The notes below the pieces were generated by a model. The model searched no databases and had not been told where the DNA came from. It was given only the letters and a program-made list of their open reading frames with translations. 64,000 nt of DNA. Origin: Escherichia coli O127:H6 str. E2348/69 (GTDB lineage Bacteria > Pseudomonadota > Gammaproteobacteria > Enterobacterales > Enterobacteriaceae). The position numbers and the translations under genes are program-made. The stretch is taken from NCBI RefSeq assembly GCF_000026545.1, contig NC_011601.1; one strand, written 5' to 3'. Positions 28,495 to 39,487 of this stretch are shown piece after piece (positions within the stretch are counted from its first letter, which is position 1; each line of letters begins with the position of its first letter).

Positions 28495-28526
28495 GTTGAG
28501 AAGTAATTTTTACCGGGAGGAAATTT

Positions 28527-28801
28527 ATGGAGACTGTTTTTGACGCACTGAAAGCAATGGGAAAAGCCACATCCATAGAACTTGCTGCGCGCGTGAAGAA
28601 GTGCTGAACGAACTATGGGAACTGAAAAAGGCTGGTTTTGTTGATAAAAGCGCGTACACCTGGCGTGTGGCTGATAACAACGTTCAGCAGGAACAGCCAG
28701 CGCAGGCAGAACTGCCGGAAGAAACCACCACAATGAGTGAAGTTATGCAGCGCATACTGGCATTTTATCAGGGAAATGTTCGATATTTTAGACGTTACTA
28801 G
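28527..28801 (+). pseudogene. Small phage ORF apparently interrupted by frameshift/stop
   Basis: ATG at 28527 gives [26 protein letters not shown] and the sense continues in another frame (ORF 28601-28801). Confidence 0.35.
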
Positions 28802-29240
28802 ATTAAAGAGCATTAGTTCAGATGTGAATTGACATTGTGTGGCACAGGGTTGGGCTAGCGTGGGGGTTTGCTTTGTGTAAGAAACGGATGCTCTGCAAAT
28901 TACTACTAATGCTTAATGTTAGTCTGATCTGCTCCCCGATGATTAATACACCGCTATGTTAGTAATGTCTGTAGATCGCTGTGTGTTGCATCCATCGGTT
29001 GACCCCACAGTCCAAACCAGACTGTCAGCTTTGATTCGATTCTATCTACTCAACCTGTCAGGTAATGTCTGAGCTAATACACAGAGTACGGCTATCGCGA
29101 ACTTTAAGCTAGGTATCTGATACGCACCGTTCACTTGGTCGTACTTCTTGCACTGACTAGCTATCGTGCGCAGTTATTTATAGGTAATCTCCAGTGTATA
29201 ATTTTCCAACTTATGGGAGATTGTAAAACAGGAGGAATAT

Positions 29241-30083
29241 ATGAGGAAAAAATCGTTTGGACGTTGCCCGTTTGATTTCGACGAAGATGTAAAAAAAATA
29301 GCCGCGATAAATAAATATATCCATGCGAAATTTGAGAGGCATAAAAATAAAATAGATAACCTAAAGGGGGTGGAACAAAAATTGATGGTTTTACATTACT
29401 TTAATGTACTGAATGAACTTAGTAATCAGGCTATATTTTCTTTGAGTACCGGAGCCTTTTCAGCATCGGAAGTATTAACTAGAGTTATAATGGAACAGGC
29501 TGCCAATCAATTTTATATAGCAATTGATGATGGAAAAAATGCACAAGCATTACTCAAGGGTAGTAAGAAATTAGTTCATAGTAATGGGAAACGGTGGCTG
29601 GAGTGTTTAAAATCCAAAGAAATGACTAATCCAGCAGCAGATGAAAGGATTCGTATCGGAAAAGAGCTAACTGATATGTTTAATAGATTGTGGCCAAATA
29701 CACCTGAATATCCTGGAACCAAAAAGCTTTTCGAAGTAATTGGCTGGGAAACACACTATCATGCCTATTACGTCCCTCTTTGTGATTCAATACATACATT
29801 CTCTGATGATATGGCAAATATAGTATCTCTATATAATGCAATCCAAAGCGATAAAACTACTGCTATCGAACTCACTCTTGCAGTTAAACAAGAAAATAAA
29901 CGGCTGGCAATTTATAATGTCGTAATTGCTATTGGCCTGCGGTGTGAGGCCTTAGTAAATGTATTTAACTCTTTAGGTTATCGAGATATTATAACTGAAA
30001 TGGCGCCAACAATAGATGCAGTCAACCAGATTATAATTCGATATGATGATTTCGAACATTCCAGAATTTTTTATTGTCAATAA
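29241..30083 (+). CDS. Uncharacterised 280-aa protein in AT-rich accessory island
   Basis: Clean ORF with RBS aggagg 8 nt upstream; visibly AT-rich codon usage; no motif I can assign. Confidence 0.7.
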   Translation: MRKKSFGRCPFDFDEDVKKIAAINKYIHAKFERHKNKIDNLKGVEQKLMVLHYFNVLNELSNQAIFSLSTGAFSASEVLTRVIMEQAANQFYIAIDDGKNAQALLKGSKKLVHSNGKRWLECLKSKEMTNPAADERIRIGKELTDMFNRLWPNTPEYPGTKKLFEVIGWETHYHAYYVPLCDSIHTFSDDMANIVSLYNAIQSDKTTAIELTLAVKQENKRLAIYNVVIAIGLRCEALVNVFNSLGYRDIITEMAPTIDAVNQIIIRYDDFEHSRIFYCQ

Positions 30084-30140
30084 TTAATTGGCAGAATTCG
30101 TACATGCACAACAACTAGTTATAGTTGACCTATTTCGCTC

Positions 30141-30710
30141 TTGAGAGACAACCATACTCAAATCTTCCACATTGCAGGAGATTTGAGTATGAATACGTCA
30201 CCGAGGAACAAAGACAGTATCATAGGCCCAAAAAGACCACTTCAGATATCTCATATCTGGGGGCTCCAAATCCGGCTTGAACTGGAAGGTAAAACGCGTG
30301 ATTTAGCTCGGTTTCAAGCAGAGCTACGGTGCTGCAACTGAAAAACTGGCAGTCCTATCCAATTTGAGATAACCAAAGGGACAAGAGAAGCTGTTTCTGC
30401 ATTGATAAAGCTTGGCAATTTACGCAGTAAAGACTACTTGTTCCGATCTCGGGTCGGTACTAACCAACACATATCAATCCTGCAATATAACCGAATCTTT
30501 CATAGGAGGGAGAAAAGCTTGGTCTCGAAGATTCGCTTTACAGCACACATTCCATGAGAAGAACAAAACCTTGCCTTGTCTGCAAGAAAACTAAGAATCT
30601 CCGGGTGATCCAACTTCCGTTGGGCCATAAGAAAACGGAAAGCACAGTTCGTTATCTGGGTATAGAAGTTGATGATGCATTAGAGATCTCTGAATCGATC
30701 GAAGTCTAAA
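30141..30710 (+). pseudogene. Degraded tyrosine recombinase/integrase
   Basis: Three short frames with recombinase hallmarks: GPKRPLQISHIWGLQIRLELEGKTRDLA (N-terminal) and HSMRRTKPCLV...LPLGHKKTESTVRYLGIEVDDALEISE (box II His/Arg and catalytic Tyr region); interrupted by stops/frameshifts. Confidence 0.6.
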
Positions 30711-31121: not shown

Positions 31122-32495
31122 ATGAAAAGACTATATTATACCCATCATGATAGTCGAACCTTAAAACTTGCTATAGAAGGTGATGTTTCTGATAATGCGA
31201 ATATTTTTACAGTAATTGTAGGTAAAAATGGCGTTGGAAAAAGCAGATTGTTATCTCAGATTGCTAAAGACTGTATTCAAGATATTCATTTCTTGAAAAC
31301 TTTTAATCCATTATTTGACAGAGAAATAACACCAAAGTTAATTGCCGTATCTACCAGCCCATTCGATAAATTCCCTCCAGGGCGTAGGTCATTAAATCAC
31401 CAAAGGAAAGAAAATAATTATCGCTATGTGGGTATGCGTGGAGAAGGCCCCTTCGGCGTATCAAATGCCGTATCCCTTTTATCTTCAGCAGCGAGAGGTT
31501 GGCTAGAGAAACTTGCTTATTCAGAAAATCCTGCAAATTTACTCGATGTTTTTCATTCTATTGATTTTGAGCCCCATATAGAGTTTGTATTTAAACCAAC
31601 TTACAACGGACCGGACACTCCTGACTATAACTTCATTGGTGTATATTCAGATGAGATATTAACGGAAGTTAAGGAGTTATATTTAAAATACAATATAAAA
31701 ATTGACAGGAAGAATATTGAGAGTCTCTTAAAGTTAAACTCCGAATCACGTCATGATATTTACGAAGCACTGGTTGAAATTAATCGATTTGAACCTGAAC
31801 GTAGGGCTGTAACCTTGTCAGTCGATTTTACCAATGGTGAAACATTGGTTGGCTCGACTTATGCGAATAATTATTTTTCTAGATCAATTCTTAAACTTAT
31901 GAACGCTGGCTTCATGAGATTGATGGATATGCGACTCATAAAAAAAAGCTATGGTCCCATGTCACTTAAACGTGCGAGCTCGGGAGAACAATGTTTATTA
32001 GTGATGTTGCTTGGAATTGCAGGGCATATAACTGATGGTTCTATAATACTAATTGATGAACCGGAAATAAGCTTGCATCCTCGATGGCAGGAAGAGTTTA
32101 TCATTATGTTAACAAAAGCATTTTTAACTTACTCAGGTTGTCAATTCATAATTGCAACTCATTCACCACAAATAATATCCAATTTGCCGAATAAAGGTTG
32201 TTATATAACATCTTTGTCGAAAAGTTATCTTTATAAAGCAAAATACTTTAGCAACCGGTCTGCAGACTATCAACTTGCGGAACTATTTGATGCCCCTGGC
32301 ATTATGAATGAATACATTGCCAGATTAGCTTTCAATTTACTTTCAAAAGTTAAGACTGCTAAGTTAGTAACAGATGATAATTGGCGTGAATTAAAACAAC
32401 TCCAGCTTCTCCTTGAAAACGTTAATAGTAATGACCCTATTAATGAACTCGTAAATTCCGTATCTCAGGTGTGTGAAATTTATGCCAAAAATTAA
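31122..32495 (+). CDS. ABC/AAA_21-type ATPase, Septu PtuA-like
   Basis: Walker A VIVGKNGVGKSRLL; Walker B + D-loop IILIDEPEISLHP; H-loop IIATHSPQII; 457 aa; overlaps downstream HNH gene. Confidence 0.75.
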   Translation: MKRLYYTHHDSRTLKLAIEGDVSDNANIFTVIVGKNGVGKSRLLSQIAKDCIQDIHFLKTFNPLFDREITPKLIAVSTSPFDKFPPGRRSLNHQRKENNYRYVGMRGEGPFGVSNAVSLLSSAARGWLEKLAYSENPANLLDVFHSIDFEPHIEFVFKPTYNGPDTPDYNFIGVYSDEILTEVKELYLKYNIKIDRKNIESLLKLNSESRHDIYEALVEINRFEPERRAVTLSVDFTNGETLVGSTYANNYFSRSILKLMNAGFMRLMDMRLIKKSYGPMSLKRASSGEQCLLVMLLGIAGHITDGSIILIDEPEISLHPRWQEEFIIMLTKAFLTYSGCQFIIATHSPQIISNLPNKGCYITSLSKSYLYKAKYFSNRSADYQLAELFDAPGIMNEYIARLAFNLLSKVKTAKLVTDDNWRELKQLQLLLENVNSNDPINELVNSVSQVCEIYAKN

Positions 32496-33117
32496 AAATC
32501 CAATTAGATTCAGCGCAGAGTCATTAGATATTATTGAGAAAAAATTGTCTTCTCCAGATTTTAAGCATACCAACTGGGGAGATGATGATTTGCAAGTTCT
32601 CCGTGCAGAAATTAGAAATCATTACAGAGAAGAACAAAAGCTAGAATGTGTATATTGTCATGAGCCTATTGGGGTAAGAGCTGCACAAGCTGCTCCTATA
32701 GAGCATATTGTGCCAAAATCTCAATATCTATGTTTTATTTTTGAACCTAAGAATCTATGTGTAGTATGTCCTGACTGCAATGAATTCAAAGGTAAAAATG
32801 AAGTGTTATTTGAACCCGTAATAAATGGGGGGCGGCGCAAAAACTATCCAACTGCATCTGCATCATTTCGCATCGTTCATCCACATATAGATGATTATGA
32901 GATGCATATTATAAAAGCAAATCGTGTTTATGTGGACAAAACACCTAAAGGGCACTATACCATTGGAATATGTAAACTAAATAGATTTTTTCATTATTTT
33001 GGGATGTGTGATGAATTTGTTAATGATGCAAAAATTGCTGAGGCAAATGAAAATTTTTTCAAAAAAGGTAGTATTACTACTAATGAATTATTGGATGATG
33101 ACATTCATTTGATTTAA
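32473..33117 (+). CDS. HNH endonuclease, Septu PtuB-like
   Basis: HNH/zinc motif CVYCHEP...IEHIVPKS...CVVCPDCNEFKGKN; 214 aa; start overlaps ATPase gene end by 23 nt. Confidence 0.75.
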   Translation: MKFMPKIKNPIRFSAESLDIIEKKLSSPDFKHTNWGDDDLQVLRAEIRNHYREEQKLECVYCHEPIGVRAAQAAPIEHIVPKSQYLCFIFEPKNLCVVCPDCNEFKGKNEVLFEPVINGGRRKNYPTASASFRIVHPHIDDYEMHIIKANRVYVDKTPKGHYTIGICKLNRFFHYFGMCDEFVNDAKIAEANENFFKKGSITTNELLDDDIHLI

Positions 33118-33371
33118 CTATGAATTATTATATTGTAAAGTAATCAGGTAAGATATGTTAGACAGTGAGACTATTGCCTTACAGAATTCATTATTCTTAT
33201 GGATCGCCTTTCTGACTGATTTCATATTGGCGGGGTAACGGGAGTTAAGTAGAATGGCTGCGGGTGCTTGAGGCTATCTGTCTCAGGCATGAACACCAAA
33301 GGCAGATAGAGAAAAGCCCCAGTTAACATTACGCGTCCTGCAAGACGCTTAACATTAATCTGAGGCCAATT

Positions 33372-34460
33372 TCATGCTAGACACATGTAGGTTAGCCTCT
33401 TACGTGCCGGAAGGCAAGGAGATGTATGGGTCCACCACATATTGCAATTTTTATTCTCTTTTAAAATATATTCCACGGGCGTCATTAGTGCGAGCGCCTT
33501 GTGGGGTCTTTTGCTGTTATACAGCACCAGATATTCCGCCAGCTTCTGGTTAAATAGCGCCAGATCTTCAAAGAGTAAAATCTCATTAAATTCAATAAAC
33601 TGCTCTCTTAACGTCCGGTTAAAACGTTCACAGATAGCGTTCATTTTTGGCGTGTAGGGATAGGTCCAGAGGTGTTTGATAGCGGCTTCCTGCAGCGTTT
33701 TGTCGAAGTTTCCCAGGAACTCTTTTCCGTTATCTGTGATTATCTGGCTGATACCGACCGGGAACAACCGGGCTGCGCGGCTGAAGAAGTGATTGACGAT
33801 ATCACTGTTGAGTGACGGCACAGCCAGCGCCAGCGCGTAATTGCTGCATTCGTCGATCATGGTGATGACATAGCGACGCAGTTCGCCCATTCTGAGCTCA
33901 ATGGCGTCCATCCCAATGAGCTCACCTGTCTTTACCGGGCGGTAGTGCTTTGGCCTGCGGGGTTTGGCAGACCGCTTTTTGACAAGCAGTGCCTTCCCCC
34001 GCGATCCCAGACGCACAGGTATCATCCGCATTTTATCATGTGCGGCAGCGATCATTCTGCCGATGGTGGAAACACTCGGACAGGCCAGATAGCGCTGTTC
34101 GCACCAGGGCTTCAGGCGAACAAAAATCTGCTCTTTACCGAGGTTCGGCAGCTCTGTCCTGAGGCGTCGAATCTCTTTCAGCACATCGGGATGCCAGTGT
34201 TTTTTTCGTCGCACCAGAGGTGCCTTACTGTGCGGGATTAGCCCCTCAGGTCCTTCCTTGTTCAGTAACTGACGCCACCAGTAAAGCGTGCGGCAGGACA
34301 CGCCAAAGGCTTCAGAAGCTGCAGAAATACCGTGTTTATCCCAGAAGTGCAGAGCCTTCATTCTCATTGTTGCTATATCAGCCATCACTGAAAGCCTCAA
34401 CGCATAATCGGCCGTTTGGTAGTACTTAGGATAGCCAACCATCAGATGCTGCATTTGCAT
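33372..34460 (-). CDS. IS481-family DDE transposase (integrase-core/rve domain)
   Basis: 362 aa; N-terminal HTH (...CRTLYWWRQ...), DDE core, C-terminal ...YNSKRPHKALALMTPVEY typical of rve transposases. Confidence 0.7.
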   Translation of the reverse strand: MQMQHLMVGYPKYYQTADYALRLSVMADIATMRMKALHFWDKHGISAASEAFGVSCRTLYWWRQLLNKEGPEGLIPHSKAPLVRRKKHWHPDVLKEIRRLRTELPNLGKEQIFVRLKPWCEQRYLACPSVSTIGRMIAAAHDKMRMIPVRLGSRGKALLVKKRSAKPRRPKHYRPVKTGELIGMDAIELRMGELRRYVITMIDECSNYALALAVPSLNSDIVNHFFSRAARLFPVGISQIITDNGKEFLGNFDKTLQEAAIKHLWTYPYTPKMNAICERFNRTLREQFIEFNEILLFEDLALFNQKLAEYLVLYNSKRPHKALALMTPVEYILKENKNCNMWWTHTSPCLPARKRLTYMCLA

Positions 34461-34490
34461 AGTGCAATCTCCCCTTACTTATCCGGAGGC
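33372..34490 (-). mobile_element. IS481-family insertion sequence (approximate limits)
   Basis: Single-ORF DDE transposase; imperfect terminal inverted repeats ccggaaggcaaggagat (about 33406) and revcomp of atctccccttacttatccgg (about 34467-34486); exact ends not resolved. Confidence 0.6.
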
Positions 34491-34531
34491 AATTGCAATA
34501 TCTCTGTGAACTTACACAGGAGAAGCAGGCT

Positions 34532-34687
34532 ATGAAGCAGCAAAAGGCGATGTTAATCGCCCTGATCGTCATCTGTTTAACCGTCATAGTGACGACACTG
34601 GTAACGAGGAAAGACCTCTGCGAGGTACGAATCCGAACCGGCCAGACGGAGGCCGCTGTCTTCACAGCTTACGAACCTGAGGAGTAA
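34532..34687 (+). CDS. hok: Hok/Gef-family type I toxin
   Basis: MKQQKAMLIALIVICLTVIVTTLVTRKDLCEVRIRTGQTEAAVFTAYEPEE, near-identical in pattern to Hok/Gef peptides as recalled. Confidence 0.9.
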   Translation: MKQQKAMLIALIVICLTVIVTTLVTRKDLCEVRIRTGQTEAAVFTAYEPEE

Positions 34688-34756
34688 GAGACCCGGCGAG
34701 GGAGAAATCCCTCGCCACCTCTGATGTGGCAGGCATCCTCAACGCACCCGCACTTA

Positions 34757-34777
34757 ACCCGCTTCGGCGGGTTTTTG
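34757..34777 (+). terminator. Rho-independent terminator downstream of hok
   Basis: cccgcttcggcggg stem-loop followed by a T-run. Confidence 0.7.
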
Positions 34778-34903
34778 TTTTTATTTTCAACGCGTTTGAA
34801 GTTCTGGACGGCGCCGGAATAGAATCAAAAATACTTAAGTAGCGCGCAGGGATAAGAGGGATGGTCCCTTAAAGGGGAGAGCTAATTATCCGGAAGGATT
34901 CTG

Positions 34904-39237: not shown

Positions 39238-39313
39238 GGCCCTTTAGCTCAGTGGTGAGAGCGAGCGACTCATAATCGCCAGGTCGCTGGTTCAAATCCA
39301 GCAAGGGCCACCA
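39238..39313 (+). tRNA. ileZ: tRNA with CAU anticodon, Ile2-like (ileZ-type of lambdoid phages)
   Basis: Hand-folded cloverleaf: acceptor GGCCCTT/AAGGGCC, D-arm GCTC..GAGC, anticodon loop CTCATAA, T-arm GCTGG TTCAAAT CCAGC, CCA end; resembles E. coli tRNA-Ile2 as recalled. Confidence 0.85.
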
Positions 39314-39320
39314 TCACATA

Positions 39321-39397
39321 CCGCCATTAGCTCATCGGCAGAGAGCGTCAGCTTTCGAAACTGGCTGTGTGGGGCCCGGGTCCCCGATGGCAATCCA
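39321..39397 (+). ncRNA. Degenerate tRNA-like element (possible pseudo-tRNA, argN-like position)
   Basis: U8A9 + D-arm GCTCATCGGCAGAGAGC and CCA end, but mismatched acceptor, 9-nt anticodon loop and atypical T-loop. Confidence 0.3.
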
Positions 39398-39410
39398 TTA
39401 TTTGCATTAT

Positions 39411-39487
39411 GCGTTGTTAGCTCAGCCGGACAGAGCAATTGCCTTCTAAGCAATCGGTCACTGGTTCGAATCCAGTACAACGCGCCA
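39411..39487 (+). tRNA. argO: tRNA-Arg (anticodon UCU)
   Basis: Cloverleaf: acceptor GCGTTGT/ACAACGC, anticodon stem ATTGC/GCAAT with loop CTTCTAA, T-arm ACTGG TTCGAAT CCAGT, CCA end. Confidence 0.9.

What the first reader, a model, noticed from the sequence alone, without database searches (positions are those of the whole stretch)
33372..34790. hok-family toxin locus with an IS481-family element abutting its leader region
A canonical Hok/Gef toxin ORF (34532-34687) with downstream terminator sits within about 50 bp of the inferred right end of an IS481-family element. Chromosomal hok loci are known to be frequently inactivated by IS insertions in their regulatory 5' regions in E. coli K-12. 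Here the IS occupies the place where the hok mRNA 5' leader and antisense sok promoter would be expected, so the type I toxin-antitoxin may be deregulated or silenced.
Basis: partly seen in the sequence, partly recalled or inferred. Interest (0 to 1): 0.5.

Follow-up and report, generated by a model that had tools for sequence, protein, structure and literature searches.

The report
Promoter-seeking insertion element splits hok toxin locus
A complete hok/sok toxin-antitoxin locus in a prophage of E. coli E2348/69 has been cut in two by a 1.1-kb insertion element that, here and at dozens of other sites, lands exactly five bases upstream of a bacterial promoter (here the promoter of the antitoxin RNA), a targeting habit I could not find described for any bacterial insertion element.

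Summary
The IS spans 33423-34518 (1096 bp) with a 5-bp target duplication, GGAGA, which is the hok Shine-Dalgarno. The hok promoter, leader (tac, mok start, Sok target) and the Sok gene are not missing. They lie intact on the far side of the IS at 33227-33422 (Rfam sok model, 112 bits). Removing the IS and one GGAGA restores a locus found uninterrupted in thousands of E. coli genomes. hok is therefore cut off from its promoter and from mok, and is probably silent, while Sok is probably still made.

The position is not accidental. Across 34 distinct insertion sites, 18 read TTG-N20-TA-N3-T in one fixed register after the duplication (chance 0.001 per site; P=1e-45). The conserved bases are the ones sigma-70 contacts. 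Targets include Sok, Rdl and AgrB-like antitoxin promoters, plus sthA, cvi and sites inside genes. The IS thus inserts just upstream of the -35 hexamer in one orientation. Whether RNA polymerase directs this is inferred, not shown. No precedent was found in the searchable literature.

The parts
33227..33255 (+). hok mRNA promoter (-35 TTGGCG, 17-bp spacer, -10 TAGAAT)
   Evidence: Promoter scan. It lies 6 nt before the first base of the Rfam leader match at 33262. The sequence is identical in the empty-site strain.
33262..33422 (+). hok mRNA 5' leader, intact: tac (33262-33273), stem-loops, mok Shine-Dalgarno and start, and the Sok target, up to the insertion point
   Evidence: Rfam RF01794, 112 bits against a gathering score of 59, model positions 1-157. 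100% identical to the uninterrupted FORC 064 locus. In the restored 420-nt mRNA, nt 1-12 pair with the fbi element.
33374..33553 (+). mok reading frame, now truncated. It starts at ATG 33374, runs into the IS and stops at 33551-33553. In the restored locus it is in frame with hok (MLDTCRLASYVPEGKEKQA-MKQQK...).
   Evidence: ORF list; translation of the restored sequence.
33389..33417 (-). Sok (antitoxin RNA) promoter: -35 TTGCCT (33417-33412), 17-bp spacer, -10 TAACCT (33394-33389). This is the feature the IS is positioned against.
   Evidence: Read directly from the sequence. The same register holds at every hok, ldr and other target. The assignment to Sok rests on the R1-type plasmid locus showing TTGCGC-17-TATCCT at the same place (L084) and on my own knowledge of R1.
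33308..33382 (-). Predicted Sok RNA. The start is predicted at G 33382 (+36 from the first T of the -35). A long hairpin followed by CUUUUCUCU serves as the terminator.
   Evidence: Fold -30.5 kcal/mol, z = -6.1 against shuffles. The start position is inferred from the promoter register, which is validated on rdlA. Not measured here.
33418..33422 (.). Left copy of the 5-bp target duplication GGAGA
33423..34518 (-). IS481-family insertion sequence, 1096 bp. Terminal repeats are 33423-33449 and 34491-34518 (20 of 28 aligned positions match). The transposase gene is on the minus strand.
   Evidence: Matches end to end, at 93-100% identity, in 1,146 records from 1,072 E. coli genomes in many contexts. 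Empty site. 5-bp duplications at 19 sites.
33372..34460 (-). Transposase ORF (362 aa here). It has no stop codon inside the IS. It reads out through the left end, the duplication and the Sok promoter, and stops at TGA 33374-33372.
   Evidence: ORF list; NCBIfam IS481; Pfam HTH_28/HTH_32/rve/rve_3; C-terminal tails compared across contexts.
34519..34523 (+). Right copy of the duplication GGAGA, which is the hok Shine-Dalgarno still at its native distance from the ATG
34532..34687 (+). hok toxin ORF (HokD type, 51 aa), intact but separated from its promoter and from mok
34737..34749 (+). fbi element (CCTCAACGCACCC), the 3' partner of tac
   Evidence: In the MFE fold of the restored mRNA, nt 1-12 pair with nt 375-387. 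Duplex energy -21.5 kcal/mol.
34756..34782 (+). Intrinsic terminator of the hok mRNA
   Evidence: Terminator scan.

Best explanation
[quoted passage not shown] An active 1096-bp IS481-family insertion sequence has recently split it.

Shown:
- The IS is a simple insertion with a 5-bp duplication of GGAGA, the hok Shine-Dalgarno.
- To its left lie the hok promoter, the tac element, the mok start, the Sok target and the whole Sok gene with its promoter.
- To its right lie the Shine-Dalgarno, the hok ORF, fbi and the terminator.
- The same element, at 99-100% identity, sits at the equivalent point of at least eight other hok loci, two ldr/Rdl loci and a dinQ/AgrB-like locus, and also at unrelated promoters.
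- Reading outward from the transposase-distal end, the sequence after the duplication is TTGnnn-N17-TAnnnT in a single fixed register and a single orientation.

Inferred consequences:
- hok can no longer be translated by its native route, because mok translation up to the hok Shine-Dalgarno is required and mok now ends inside the IS.
- The 5'-3' tac/fbi clamp is stretched by 1.1 kb.
- Sok should still be made. The toxin is therefore silenced and the antitoxin is left orphaned.

Inferred mechanism:
- The element chooses its target by recognising a sigma-70 promoter, most likely one occupied by RNA polymerase holoenzyme. It cuts at about -40 to -36.
- The strong constitutive promoters of type I antitoxin RNAs lie opposite the toxin's translation start, and insertions there are tolerated. 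The result is repeated 'IS in the toxin's Shine-Dalgarno' events.
For: Anatomy:
- Rfam leader match left of the IS.
- hok promoter and terminator.
- Gapless 600/600 alignment to the empty site in the same prophage context, and 3,849 genomes with the uninterrupted locus.
- The restored mok is in frame with hok.
- The restored mRNA pairs tac with fbi, and Sok has a terminator hairpin.
- The requirement for mok translation up to the hok Shine-Dalgarno is from PMC9841398.

Mobility and recency:
- Copies 100% identical are found at different loci, including two more in E2348/69 itself.
- At hokD-type sites the IS copies are 98.9-100% identical while the flanks are only 84-98% identical.

Target rule:
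- 19 sites have verified 5-bp duplications.
- 18 of 34 distinct left flanks meet the strict pattern, against a background of 0.00097 (P=1e-45).
- In the logo of 16 independent sites, the positions at or above 1 bit are -35 TTG, G at -14, T-12, A-11, T-7 and T at -1.
- Controls: 0 of 36 outward from the other end, and 0-1 matches at every other register.

The targets are real promoters:
- The annotated 5' end of K-12 rdlA is at exactly +36 of the promoter that abuts the duplication in the ldrA insertion.
- In E2348/69 the dinQ-region copy abuts TTGAAT-17-TATAAT, which drives a terminator-ended sRNA 154 nt from the toxin ORF. So the antitoxin promoter, not the toxin's Shine-Dalgarno, sets the position.
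- Targets unrelated to toxin-antitoxin systems include the region upstream of sthA, the cvi promoter with its Fur box, a plasmid intergenic TTGCCA-17-GATAAT, and sites inside an Ig-like gene and a rha gene.
Against: - No expression data. Silencing of hok and persistence of Sok are inferences. Read-through from the hok promoter across the IS could give a long transcript, since no + strand terminator is predicted inside the IS. The right-hand GGAGA keeps a Shine-Dalgarno in front of hok, so some uncoupled translation cannot be excluded.
- 16 of 34 left flanks fail the strict pattern. About seven of these are near-misses (18-bp spacer, GTGACA, TTTACT-17-TATAAT). The rest are old copies (93-96% identity) or junctions without a duplication. 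Their exclusion is reasonable but was decided after the fact.
- Sites were gathered from end-pattern scans and best BLAST places, not from an exhaustive census.
- A role for RNA polymerase rests only on which bases are conserved. Direct recognition by the transposase would give a similar logo.
- Survivorship must also shape the observed set.
Confidence: 0.8

Rival explanations
1. One reading: the IS has replaced or deleted the hok leader and the sok promoter. On this view only a bare hok ORF remains and the antitoxin may be lost, so the system is deregulated.
For: The IS right end is 13 nt from the hok ATG and no regulatory element lies between them. K-12 hokD really is truncated at this very point.
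Against: The whole leader, the Sok promoter and the Sok terminator are present and identical to the uninterrupted allele on the other side of the IS. The insertion has a clean 5-bp duplication and nothing is deleted.
Confidence: 0.02
2. There is no targeting. The element inserts more or less at random, and copies next to type I toxins are enriched only because knocking out a toxin is neutral or beneficial to the cell.
For: Chromosomal hok loci are known to collect IS elements: IS186 at K-12 hokC (PMC3562002), and IS150/IS186 at hokA and hokE (my own knowledge of Pedersen and Gerdes 1999). Survivorship certainly filters which insertions are seen.
Against: - Selection for inactivation would scatter insertions over promoter, leader and ORF in both orientations. 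Instead every toxin-linked insertion is at one register and one orientation relative to the antitoxin promoter.
- At the dinQ-type locus the IS is 154 nt from the toxin ORF but still exactly 5 bp from an sRNA promoter.
- Seven sites unrelated to toxins show the same motif at the same register. The chance of that is about 1e-21.
- The register and orientation controls are clean.
Confidence: 0.04
3. Sequence-directed targeting without RNA polymerase. The transposase, or a synaptic complex using its helix-turn-helix domains, itself reads a bipartite DNA motif (TTG, then TAnnnT 20 bp later) that happens to coincide with the sigma-70 consensus.
For: The motif is seen at sites inside coding genes, where promoter activity is unproven (L080, L081). 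The transposase has two HTH-type domains. Both terminal repeats carry TTGCAAT. Elements of the IS3 and IS30 families are known to choose targets that resemble their own ends (my own knowledge).
Against: The informative positions are precisely the sigma-70 contact set, including G at -14 and the T/G at -1/+1 around the start site. That would be a remarkable coincidence for an unrelated protein. Most strict-match sites are genuine transcription-unit promoters (Sok, Rdl, AgrB-like, STnc100, sthA, cvi) rather than random motif matches, which would mostly be inside genes. Counter-selection of insertions within genes could explain part of that.
Confidence: 0.25
4. One old insertion into a hokD-type locus has since spread to other alleles and prophages by homologous recombination through the conserved flanks, rather than by repeated transposition to the same spot.
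For: 54 genomes share the occupied hokD-type site. Lambdoid prophages recombine freely. The duplication GGAGA is the same in all of them.
Against: IS copies are 98.9-100% identical while the flanks immediately next to them are as low as 84-88% identical. This model cannot account for the same element in unrelated loci (cysH-iap hok, hokA, plasmid hok, ldr, dinQ region, sthA, cvi), which share no flanking homology.
Confidence: 0.1

Closest known systems
IS-disrupted chromosomal hok loci of E. coli K-12 (hokA with IS150; hokC/gef and hokE with IS186; truncated hokD/relF). Source: Pedersen and Gerdes 1999, from my own knowledge. The IS186 case at hokC is described in PMC3562002.
   Same: A chromosomal or prophage hok/sok locus put out of action by an insertion element close to, but not inside, the toxin ORF. 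The toxin here is 49/51 identical to K-12 HokD.
   Different: A different IS family and a different position. Here the IS sits in the hok Shine-Dalgarno, at a fixed distance from the Sok promoter, and the position recurs at many hok, ldr and dinQ-type loci. In K-12 hokC the IS186 is downstream and disrupts fbi. K-12 hokD has no IS, but its homology to the intact locus starts at exactly this insertion point.
hok/sok (parB) of plasmid R1, the reference type I toxin-antitoxin system
   Same: The same parts list: hok promoter, tac, mok, Sok target, antisense Sok with its promoter inside the mok-hok junction, hok, fbi and terminator. The regulation is as described in PMC9841398.
   Different: mok is in frame with hok, as in MokC/HokC, rather than in a +1 frame. 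The locus is in a prophage and is physically split, so it cannot work as a post-segregational killer in its present state.
ISKpn28 and the IS481 family of insertion sequences
   Same: A single DDE transposase with N-terminal HTH domains, TGT...ACA termini, short terminal repeats and a small target duplication. ISKpn28 has the same length (1096 bp) and nearly the same termini. Copies about 76% identical in nucleotide sequence (about 80% in protein) follow the same promoter rule (L058 and L094 groups).
   Different: Only about 75% nucleotide identity to ISKpn28, so it is not an isoform. NCBI gives it no element name. IS481 itself is known for the target NCTAGN with a 6-bp duplication (my own knowledge). 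I found no report of promoter-register targeting for this family.
Polymerase-directed integration in eukaryotes (Ty3 at Pol III start sites via TFIIIB; Ty1 upstream of Pol III genes; Tf1 at Pol II promoters), and factor-directed bacterial elements (Tn7 with TnsD or TnsE). All from my own knowledge.
   Same: The integration position is set by a fixed distance from a transcription landmark rather than by the duplicated sequence itself. The result is insertion upstream of a transcription unit without destroying it.
   Different: Those systems have demonstrated protein-protein tethers. Here a tether to RNA polymerase is only inferred from the logo. The element is a minimal one-gene bacterial IS.
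Bacterial IS elements with structured or repeated targets (IS1397 and ISKpn1 in BIME/REP palindromes; IS200/IS605 at hairpin-associated tetranucleotides). From my own knowledge.
   Same: Strong, orientation-specific preference for a recurrent, mostly non-coding genomic feature that serves as a safe haven.
   Different: The feature here is a functional promoter architecture with two hexamers at a 17-bp spacing, not a palindromic repeat.

Membership tests
[quoted passage not shown] | A Hok/Gef-family toxin ORF of about 50 aa (transmembrane helix, LCE motif) | tested here: met
   51-aa ORF at 34532-34687, 49/51 identical to K-12 HokD. NCBIfam Hok family E=7e-13, though its 48 bits is below the curated subfamily cut-off of 73. 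RefSeq names it hokD.
[quoted passage not shown] | A conserved structured 5' leader carrying the Sok target | tested here: met
   Rfam RF01794, 112 bits (gathering score 59), full model, at 33262-33428 on the + strand. It lies 1.1 kb from hok because of the IS.
[quoted passage not shown] | A mok reading frame that starts in the leader and overlaps the hok start (translational coupling) | tested here: not met
   In the window, mok (ATG 33374) runs into the IS and stops at 33553. It overlaps hok only in the restored sequence, and there it is in frame. The family architecture is ancestral here, not current.
[quoted passage not shown] | Long-range tac/fbi pairing between the mRNA 5' and 3' ends | tested here: met
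   In the MFE fold of the restored 420-nt mRNA, nt 1-12 pair with nt 375-387. Duplex energy -21.5 kcal/mol. Both elements are present in the window, 1.5 kb apart.
[quoted passage not shown] | An antisense Sok RNA with its own promoter and terminator | tested here: inconclusive
   TTGCCT-17-TAACCT on the minus strand and a terminator-like hairpin (z = -6.1), at the position expected from R1. No transcript data.
[quoted passage not shown] | Toxicity and post-segregational killing | not testable with these tools
   Needs expression and plasmid-loss experiments.
IS481 family insertion sequence | A DDE (rve) transposase most similar to the IS481-family profile | tested here: inconclusive
   NCBIfam transpos_IS481 scores 221.4 bits against a curated cut-off of 224. 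It is far ahead of IS3 at 98 bits. Pfam finds rve, rve_3, HTH_32 and HTH_28, and a weak LZ_Tnp_IS481. PGAP calls it an IS481 family transposase.
IS481 family insertion sequence | Terminal inverted repeats and a short target-site duplication | tested here: met
   Terminal repeats 33423-33449 and 34491-34518, with TGT...ACA tips. 5-bp duplications at 19 sites.
IS481 family insertion sequence | Mobility: the same element in different places, and empty sites exist | tested here: met
   1,927 places in 1,419 of 5,426 genomes. Copies 100% identical at unrelated loci. Empty site.
ISKpn28 (named element) | Near-identity to the reference element (an isoform needs roughly 90% or more nucleotide identity) | tested here: not met
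   75.3% nucleotide identity over 1096 bp to a copy annotated as ISKpn28 (H59).
sigma-70 promoter as the insertion target | -35 and -10 hexamers at a 17-bp spacing in a fixed register next to the duplication | tested here: met
   18 of 34 sites meet the strict pattern against a background of 0.00097. Logo. Register and orientation controls.
sigma-70 promoter as the insertion target | The target is a functional promoter with a mapped transcription start | tested here: met
   The annotated 5' end of K-12 rdlA is at +36 of TTGTAA-17-TATTCT, the promoter that abuts the IS duplication in strain D1. For the Sok promoter in the window, the start is inferred, not mapped.
sigma-70 promoter as the insertion target | RNA polymerase holoenzyme is required for target choice | not testable with these tools
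   Needs in vivo or in vitro transposition assays.

The most novel reading that the evidence does not exclude
This one-gene IS481-family element, and its relatives about 76% identical in nucleotide sequence (about 80% in protein), use a promoter-bound RNA polymerase sigma-70 holoenzyme as the landmark for integration. They cut at about -40 to -36 in one orientation. That would be a bacterial counterpart of polymerase-tethered retrotransposon integration. The element is adapted to this niche: it carries no stop codon of its own, and a consensus -35 (TTGA..) supplies the TGA. Because antitoxin sRNA promoters are strong, constitutive and face the toxin's translation start, the element acts as a recurrent, selective silencer of type I toxins (hok, ldr, dinQ types) that spares the antitoxin. 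It may also lie behind truncated loci such as K-12 hokD.
Probability: 0.45. Interest if true: 0.9.

Novelty: new variant of a known kind. Interest (0 to 1): 0.8.

Why it matters
For the locus itself, the result is a corrected map. E2348/69 carries a hok gene that annotation presents as an ordinary hokD. In fact it is cut off from its promoter and from mok, and an orphan Sok gene sits 1.1 kb away that no annotation shows.

More broadly, the position of the IS follows a rule that appears to be undescribed: insertion 5 bp upstream of the -35 hexamer of sigma-70 promoters, in one orientation.

If that holds experimentally, it would have several consequences:
- It gives transposon biology a minimal bacterial system for transcription-machinery-guided integration.
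- It explains why type I toxin-antitoxin loci are repeatedly found disrupted at the same nucleotide.
- It offers a natural reporter of promoter occupancy.
- It suggests a compact tool for placing DNA at defined positions upstream of promoters without destroying them.
- It warns annotators that the 362-aa 'IS481 family transposase' reference protein contains 16 residues encoded by the antisense strand of the hok leader.

Tried and rejected
- IS-end remnants. Short matches to the IS ends (H60, H64, H65, H70) were fetched to see whether solo ends mark old events at hok loci. All lie in IS-rich islands with no hok nearby.
- Similarity between the IS and its target. A 22-nt stretch inside the IS right end (34471-34492) matches 16/22 to the hok leader just left of the insertion (33396-33417) (D3). 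I considered capture of leader sequence or recognition of an end-like target. The left end has no counterpart, and similar chance repeats occur in the same scan, so it is left unexplained.
- K-12 hokD. I looked for an IS remnant at the relE-hokD junction. Only the last 3 nt (ACA) match the IS tip. The relBE module ends at the same base on plasmid pTB402, where it is joined to unrelated DNA. The coincidence of breakpoints stands, but no mechanism is shown.
- Weak Rfam hits on the hok 3' region (isrK at 25.7 bits, rsmX at 21.5 bits) and on the leader and IS (ceN48, sR19) are all far below gathering scores. I treat them as chance or as hairpin similarity.
- An outward promoter from the IS toward hok: none was found on the + strand between 33255 and 34796.
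- The genome-contig scan gave only one locus, in E. albertii and also at a hok start codon. The protein-based scan of viral contigs returned only relatives with at least 77% amino-acid identity. Whether more distant IS481-family members share the rule could not be tested.
- Literature searches combining IS481 with hok, ldr, type I toxins or promoter targeting found nothing relevant. One search failed on syntax.
Full report
SOURCE AND CONTEXT. The window is 100% identical to the chromosome of enteropathogenic E. coli E2348/69 (NZ_CP059840.2, around 2.88 Mb, reverse strand). The region lies in a lambdoid, Qin-like prophage. The gene order is dicB, ydfABC, dicC, ydaT-like, replication genes, a two-gene Septu defence module, the hok locus, rem, a DUF968 gene, rusA and a Q-like gene.

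CHECKING THE OBSERVATION. The Hok ORF at 34532-34687 is real. It encodes 51 aa, is 49/51 identical to K-12 HokD, hits the NCBIfam Hok family at E=7e-13, and is annotated hokD in RefSeq. An intrinsic terminator follows at 34756-34782. The minus-strand ORF at 33372-34460 encodes an IS481-family transposase. NCBIfam gives 221 bits, just under the 224 cut-off and far ahead of any other IS family. Pfam finds HTH_28/HTH_32 plus rve/rve_3.

Comparing the junctions of copies in five different contexts shows that the element is TGTATGGG...CTTACACA, at 33423-34518 (1096 bp), flanked by a 5-bp direct repeat GGAGA (33418-33422 and 34519-34523). The proof is an empty site. Strain FORC 064 has the same PtuA, PtuB, hokD and rem genes without the IS. 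The window with the IS and one GGAGA removed aligns to it 600/600 without a gap, with 598 identities. The 500-nt restored sequence is found at 80% coverage or more in 3,849 of 5,426 complete E. coli genomes and in lambdoid phages, where the ORF is annotated MokW or HokD.

WHAT IS REALLY THERE. The Rfam model RF01794 is named sok, but it covers the hok mRNA leader from its 5' end to the hok AUG. It matches 33262-33428 on the + strand at 112 bits, on the far side of the IS from hok. Upstream of that match is a promoter, TTGGCG-17-TAGAAT, at 33227-33255. So nothing has been deleted.

- Left of the IS: the hok promoter, tac, the mok Shine-Dalgarno and ATG (33374), the Sok target, and on the minus strand a promoter TTGCCT-17-TAACCT (33417-33389). 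That promoter is followed by a hairpin and a U-run that fold far better than shuffles (z = -6.1), which is the predicted Sok RNA.
- Right of the IS: the second GGAGA (the hok Shine-Dalgarno at its native 8-nt distance from the ATG), hok, fbi (34737-34749) and the terminator.

In the restored 420-nt mRNA, the minimum-energy fold pairs nt 1-12 with nt 375-387. This is the tac/fbi clamp typical of the family. The restored mok reads MLDTCRLASYVPEGKEKQA and continues in frame into MKQQK... of Hok, as I recall for MokC/HokC. In the window, mok instead runs into the IS and stops at 33553.

LIKELY CONSEQUENCE FOR THE LOCUS. In R1 hok/sok, translation of mok at least up to the hok Shine-Dalgarno is mandatory for Hok synthesis, and the tac/fbi and tac/ucb switches control it (PMC9841398). 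Here the hok ORF is 1.1 kb from its promoter and from mok. No outward promoter is predicted in the IS end. I therefore infer that hok is silent.

The Sok promoter core is untouched and begins immediately after the duplicated 5 bp, so Sok is probably still made. This is inference, because there are no expression data. A long read-through transcript from the hok promoter is possible, since no + strand terminator is predicted within the IS.

The insertion is recent. The flanks differ from the empty allele at 2 of 600 positions, and the IS is 100% identical to copies elsewhere.

WHY THE IS IS THERE. A copy fetched from the BLAST list without regard to its flanks (strain MB06101) turned out to sit in a different hok locus, between cysH and cas3. 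It has the duplication GACAT across the hok start codon and the same orientation.

I then scanned metagenome, genome and viral collections for the IS ends and fetched 100%-identical copies from complete genomes.

Among 22 distinct right flanks in the first pool, 7 had a Hok ORF starting 3-15 nt after the IS, and these were seven different Hok proteins. In viral contigs, 12 of 14 hits were at hok. Further copies sit 12-15 nt before ldr toxin genes at two loci, before hokA, and before an IncF plasmid hok.

At hokD-type sites the IS copies are 98.9-100% identical, while the adjoining flanks are only 84-98% identical. This argues for repeated insertion rather than one inherited event.

THE COMMON DENOMINATOR IS THE ANTITOXIN PROMOTER, NOT THE TOXIN. 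Every left flank ends in ...CAA before the duplication. Read outward from the IS, the sequence after the duplication is TTGnnn-N17-TAnnnT. Examples:

- Sok: TTGCCT-17-TAACCT
- R1-type plasmid Sok: TTGCGC-17-TATCCT
- hokA: TTGATT-17-TAACCT
- ldr: TTGTAA-17-TATTCT

In K-12, the annotated 5' end of rdlA lies at exactly +36 from the first T of that ldr hexamer, so the target is a real, mapped promoter.

The third E2348/69 copy (mnmH-ybbP region) has the duplication ACAGC followed by TTGAAT-17-TATAAT. That promoter drives a short terminator-ended RNA complementary to the leader of a DinQ-family toxin gene, and the toxin ORF is 154 nt away on the other side. This separates 'placed by the antitoxin promoter' from 'placed by the toxin's Shine-Dalgarno'.

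The rule also holds away from toxin-antitoxin systems:

- upstream of sthA: TTGGCT-17-TACCAT
- upstream of the colicin V immunity gene, with its Fur box: TTGACT-17-TATCGT
- a plasmid intergenic site: TTGCCA-17-GATAAT
- inside an Ig-like gene: TTGACT-17-TAACAT
- inside a rha gene: TTGATT-17-TACACT

STATISTICS AND CONTROLS. Of 34 distinct left flanks, 18 meet a strict test (TTG at +1 to +3, A at +25, T at +29). The background frequency on both strands of the window is 0.00097, giving P=1e-45. About seven more are near-misses (18-bp spacer, GTGACA, TTTACT-17-TATAAT). The clear failures are old copies (93-96% identity, for example the widespread yegH-galF and ColV iroB-iss copies) or junctions without a duplication, meaning they were rearranged.

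A logo from 16 independent sites with verified duplications has at least 1 bit of information only at -35 TTG, G at -14, T-12, A-11, T-7 and T at -1, with G frequent at +1. These are the positions sigma-70 holoenzyme reads. The duplicated bases themselves carry no information.

Outward from the other IS end the pattern occurs 0 times in 36 flanks. On the left side, sliding the register by -5 to +6 gives 0 or 1 matches everywhere except register 0.

Relatives about 76% identical in nucleotide sequence (about 80% in protein), with nearly the same termini, obey the same rule. One of their targets is next to the STnc100 sRNA gene.

AN ADAPTATION TO THE TARGET. The transposase frame is open to the very end of the element. 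With a -35 of the form TTGA.., the frame reads ACA-NNN-NNT-TGA and stops two codons beyond the IS. With TTGC.. (Sok promoters), it runs on for 11-16 codons or more. In the window it stops at TGA 33374-33372, overlapping the mok ATG. This is why the ORF, and the RefSeq reference protein, extend 51 nt into the hok leader.

MECHANISM: SHOWN VERSUS INFERRED. Shown: a simple insertion, its exact ends, the intact displaced leader and Sok gene, the recurrence at one register and one orientation next to promoter-like sequences, and the identity of several targets as real promoters. Inferred: that hok is silenced and Sok persists, and that a promoter-bound RNA polymerase, rather than the transposase reading DNA directly, defines the target.

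The main argument for polymerase is the match of the logo to sigma-70 contact positions together with the predominance of real, strong, constitutive promoters among the targets. The transposase has only the usual HTH and rve domains.

Survivorship surely contributes. Insertions upstream of essential promoters or inside genes would be lost. An insertion that spares the antitoxin promoter and disconnects the toxin is harmless.

COMPARISON WITH WHAT IS KNOWN. IS-disrupted chromosomal hok loci are classical: K-12 hokC with IS186 (PMC3562002), and hokA and hokE from my own knowledge of Pedersen and Gerdes 1999. So the locus as such is a new member of a known kind.

The element is an unnamed relative of ISKpn28, at 75% nucleotide identity. 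I found no report that links IS481-family elements to hok or ldr loci, or that describes a bacterial IS inserting at a fixed register upstream of -35 hexamers. This includes a 2026 survey of Hok diversity, which notes only that IS-related genes are frequent near hok. The searchable library is incomplete and ISfinder notes could not be consulted, so prior description cannot be excluded.

VERDICT. The locus is an intact hok/sok system split by a recent simple insertion, not a toxin ORF stripped of its regulators. The position of the insertion reflects a strong and apparently undescribed target rule of the element. I rate this a new variant of a known kind, with interest 0.8. Confidence is about 0.97 for the anatomy, about 0.9 for the promoter-register rule as an empirical pattern, and about 0.45-0.5 for RNA polymerase as the guide.

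Noticed in passing
window 31122-33117 (+): A two-gene Septu anti-phage defence module lies immediately upstream of the hok promoter: PtuA at 31122-32495 (PADLOC 549 bits) and the PtuB HNH nuclease at 32473-33117 (278 bits). RefSeq calls them only 'AAA family ATPase' and 'HNH endonuclease'. The same pair sits next to the uninterrupted hok locus in strain FORC 064.
   Followed up: partly
L006 (K-12 MG1655 Qin prophage, relE-hokD junction, record 1645275-1645345); corresponds to window 34519: K-12's truncated hokD becomes homologous to the intact locus at exactly the IS insertion point...GCGTTGACA|GGAGAAGC in K-12 against ...GGCAA|GGAGAAGC in the intact locus. Only the 3 nt ACA before the junction match the IS tip. 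The relBE module ends at the same base on plasmid pTB402 (L086), where it is joined to unrelated DNA. The coincidence is unexplained.
   Followed up: partly
window 33372-33422 (-) and all other copies: The transposase ORF has no stop codon inside the IS. A -35 hexamer of the form TTGA.. supplies TGA two codons past the end. At Sok promoters (TTGC..) the tail is 11-16 residues or more. RefSeq's 362-aa 'IS481 family transposase' WP_001178383.1 therefore includes 16 residues encoded by hok-leader antisense DNA. Copies in other contexts are flagged as pseudogenes 'missing C-terminus'.
   Followed up: yes
L074 (E2348/69 record 1067148-1068243) and L156 (E2348/69 variety 2 record 486808-487903): E2348/69 carries at least two more 100%-identical copies. 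One lies across the start codon of a HokE-like gene between cysH and iap (duplication GACAT). The other lies 5 bp upstream of TTGAAT-17-TATAAT, which drives an AgrB-like sRNA next to a DinQ-family toxin gene. All three copies examined in this strain sit at type I antitoxin promoters.
   Followed up: yes
L075 (strain 2015C-3163) and L078 (strain D1, chaA-kdsA region): The same IS sits 12-13 nt upstream of Ldr-family toxin ORFs (duplications CACAG and CAAGG), directly against the Rdl promoter. This is a second, unrelated type I toxin family hit in the same way.
   Followed up: yes
window 34471-34492 versus 33396-33417: A 22-nt stretch just inside the IS right terminal repeat (CCCCTTACTTATCCGGAGGCAA) matches 16/22 to the hok leader segment that abuts the insertion (CCTCTTACGTGCCGGAAGGCAA). 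Both end in GGCAA. This may be chance. No counterpart exists at the left end (D3).
   Followed up: partly
L058 5021-5222 and related viral contigs (L087, L088, L093-L096, L100, L103-L105 and others): An IS relative about 76% identical in nucleotide sequence (about 80% in protein) is inserted 5 bp upstream of TTGAAA-17-TAAATT at two related phage sites. One is next to an Rfam STnc100 sRNA match (108 bits). The promoter rule therefore extends beyond this one element.
   Followed up: partly
window 34532-34687: The Hok protein here differs from K-12 HokD at two residues (A22T and V41A). The empty-site allele in FORC 064 has V at 41. No frameshift or stop, so the ORF is not decayed.
   Followed up: no
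window about 28500-30710, 39238-39487 and 43265 onward (from L001 annotation, offset +24149): RefSeq annotates several features around the locus: a frameshifted DUF1627 gene, a DUF5677 gene and a frameshifted tyrosine recombinase upstream of the Septu genes; prophage tRNA-Ile and tRNA-Arg genes downstream; and an ISEc13 (IS4-like) copy further on. This suggests a mosaic accessory region in the prophage.
   Followed up: no
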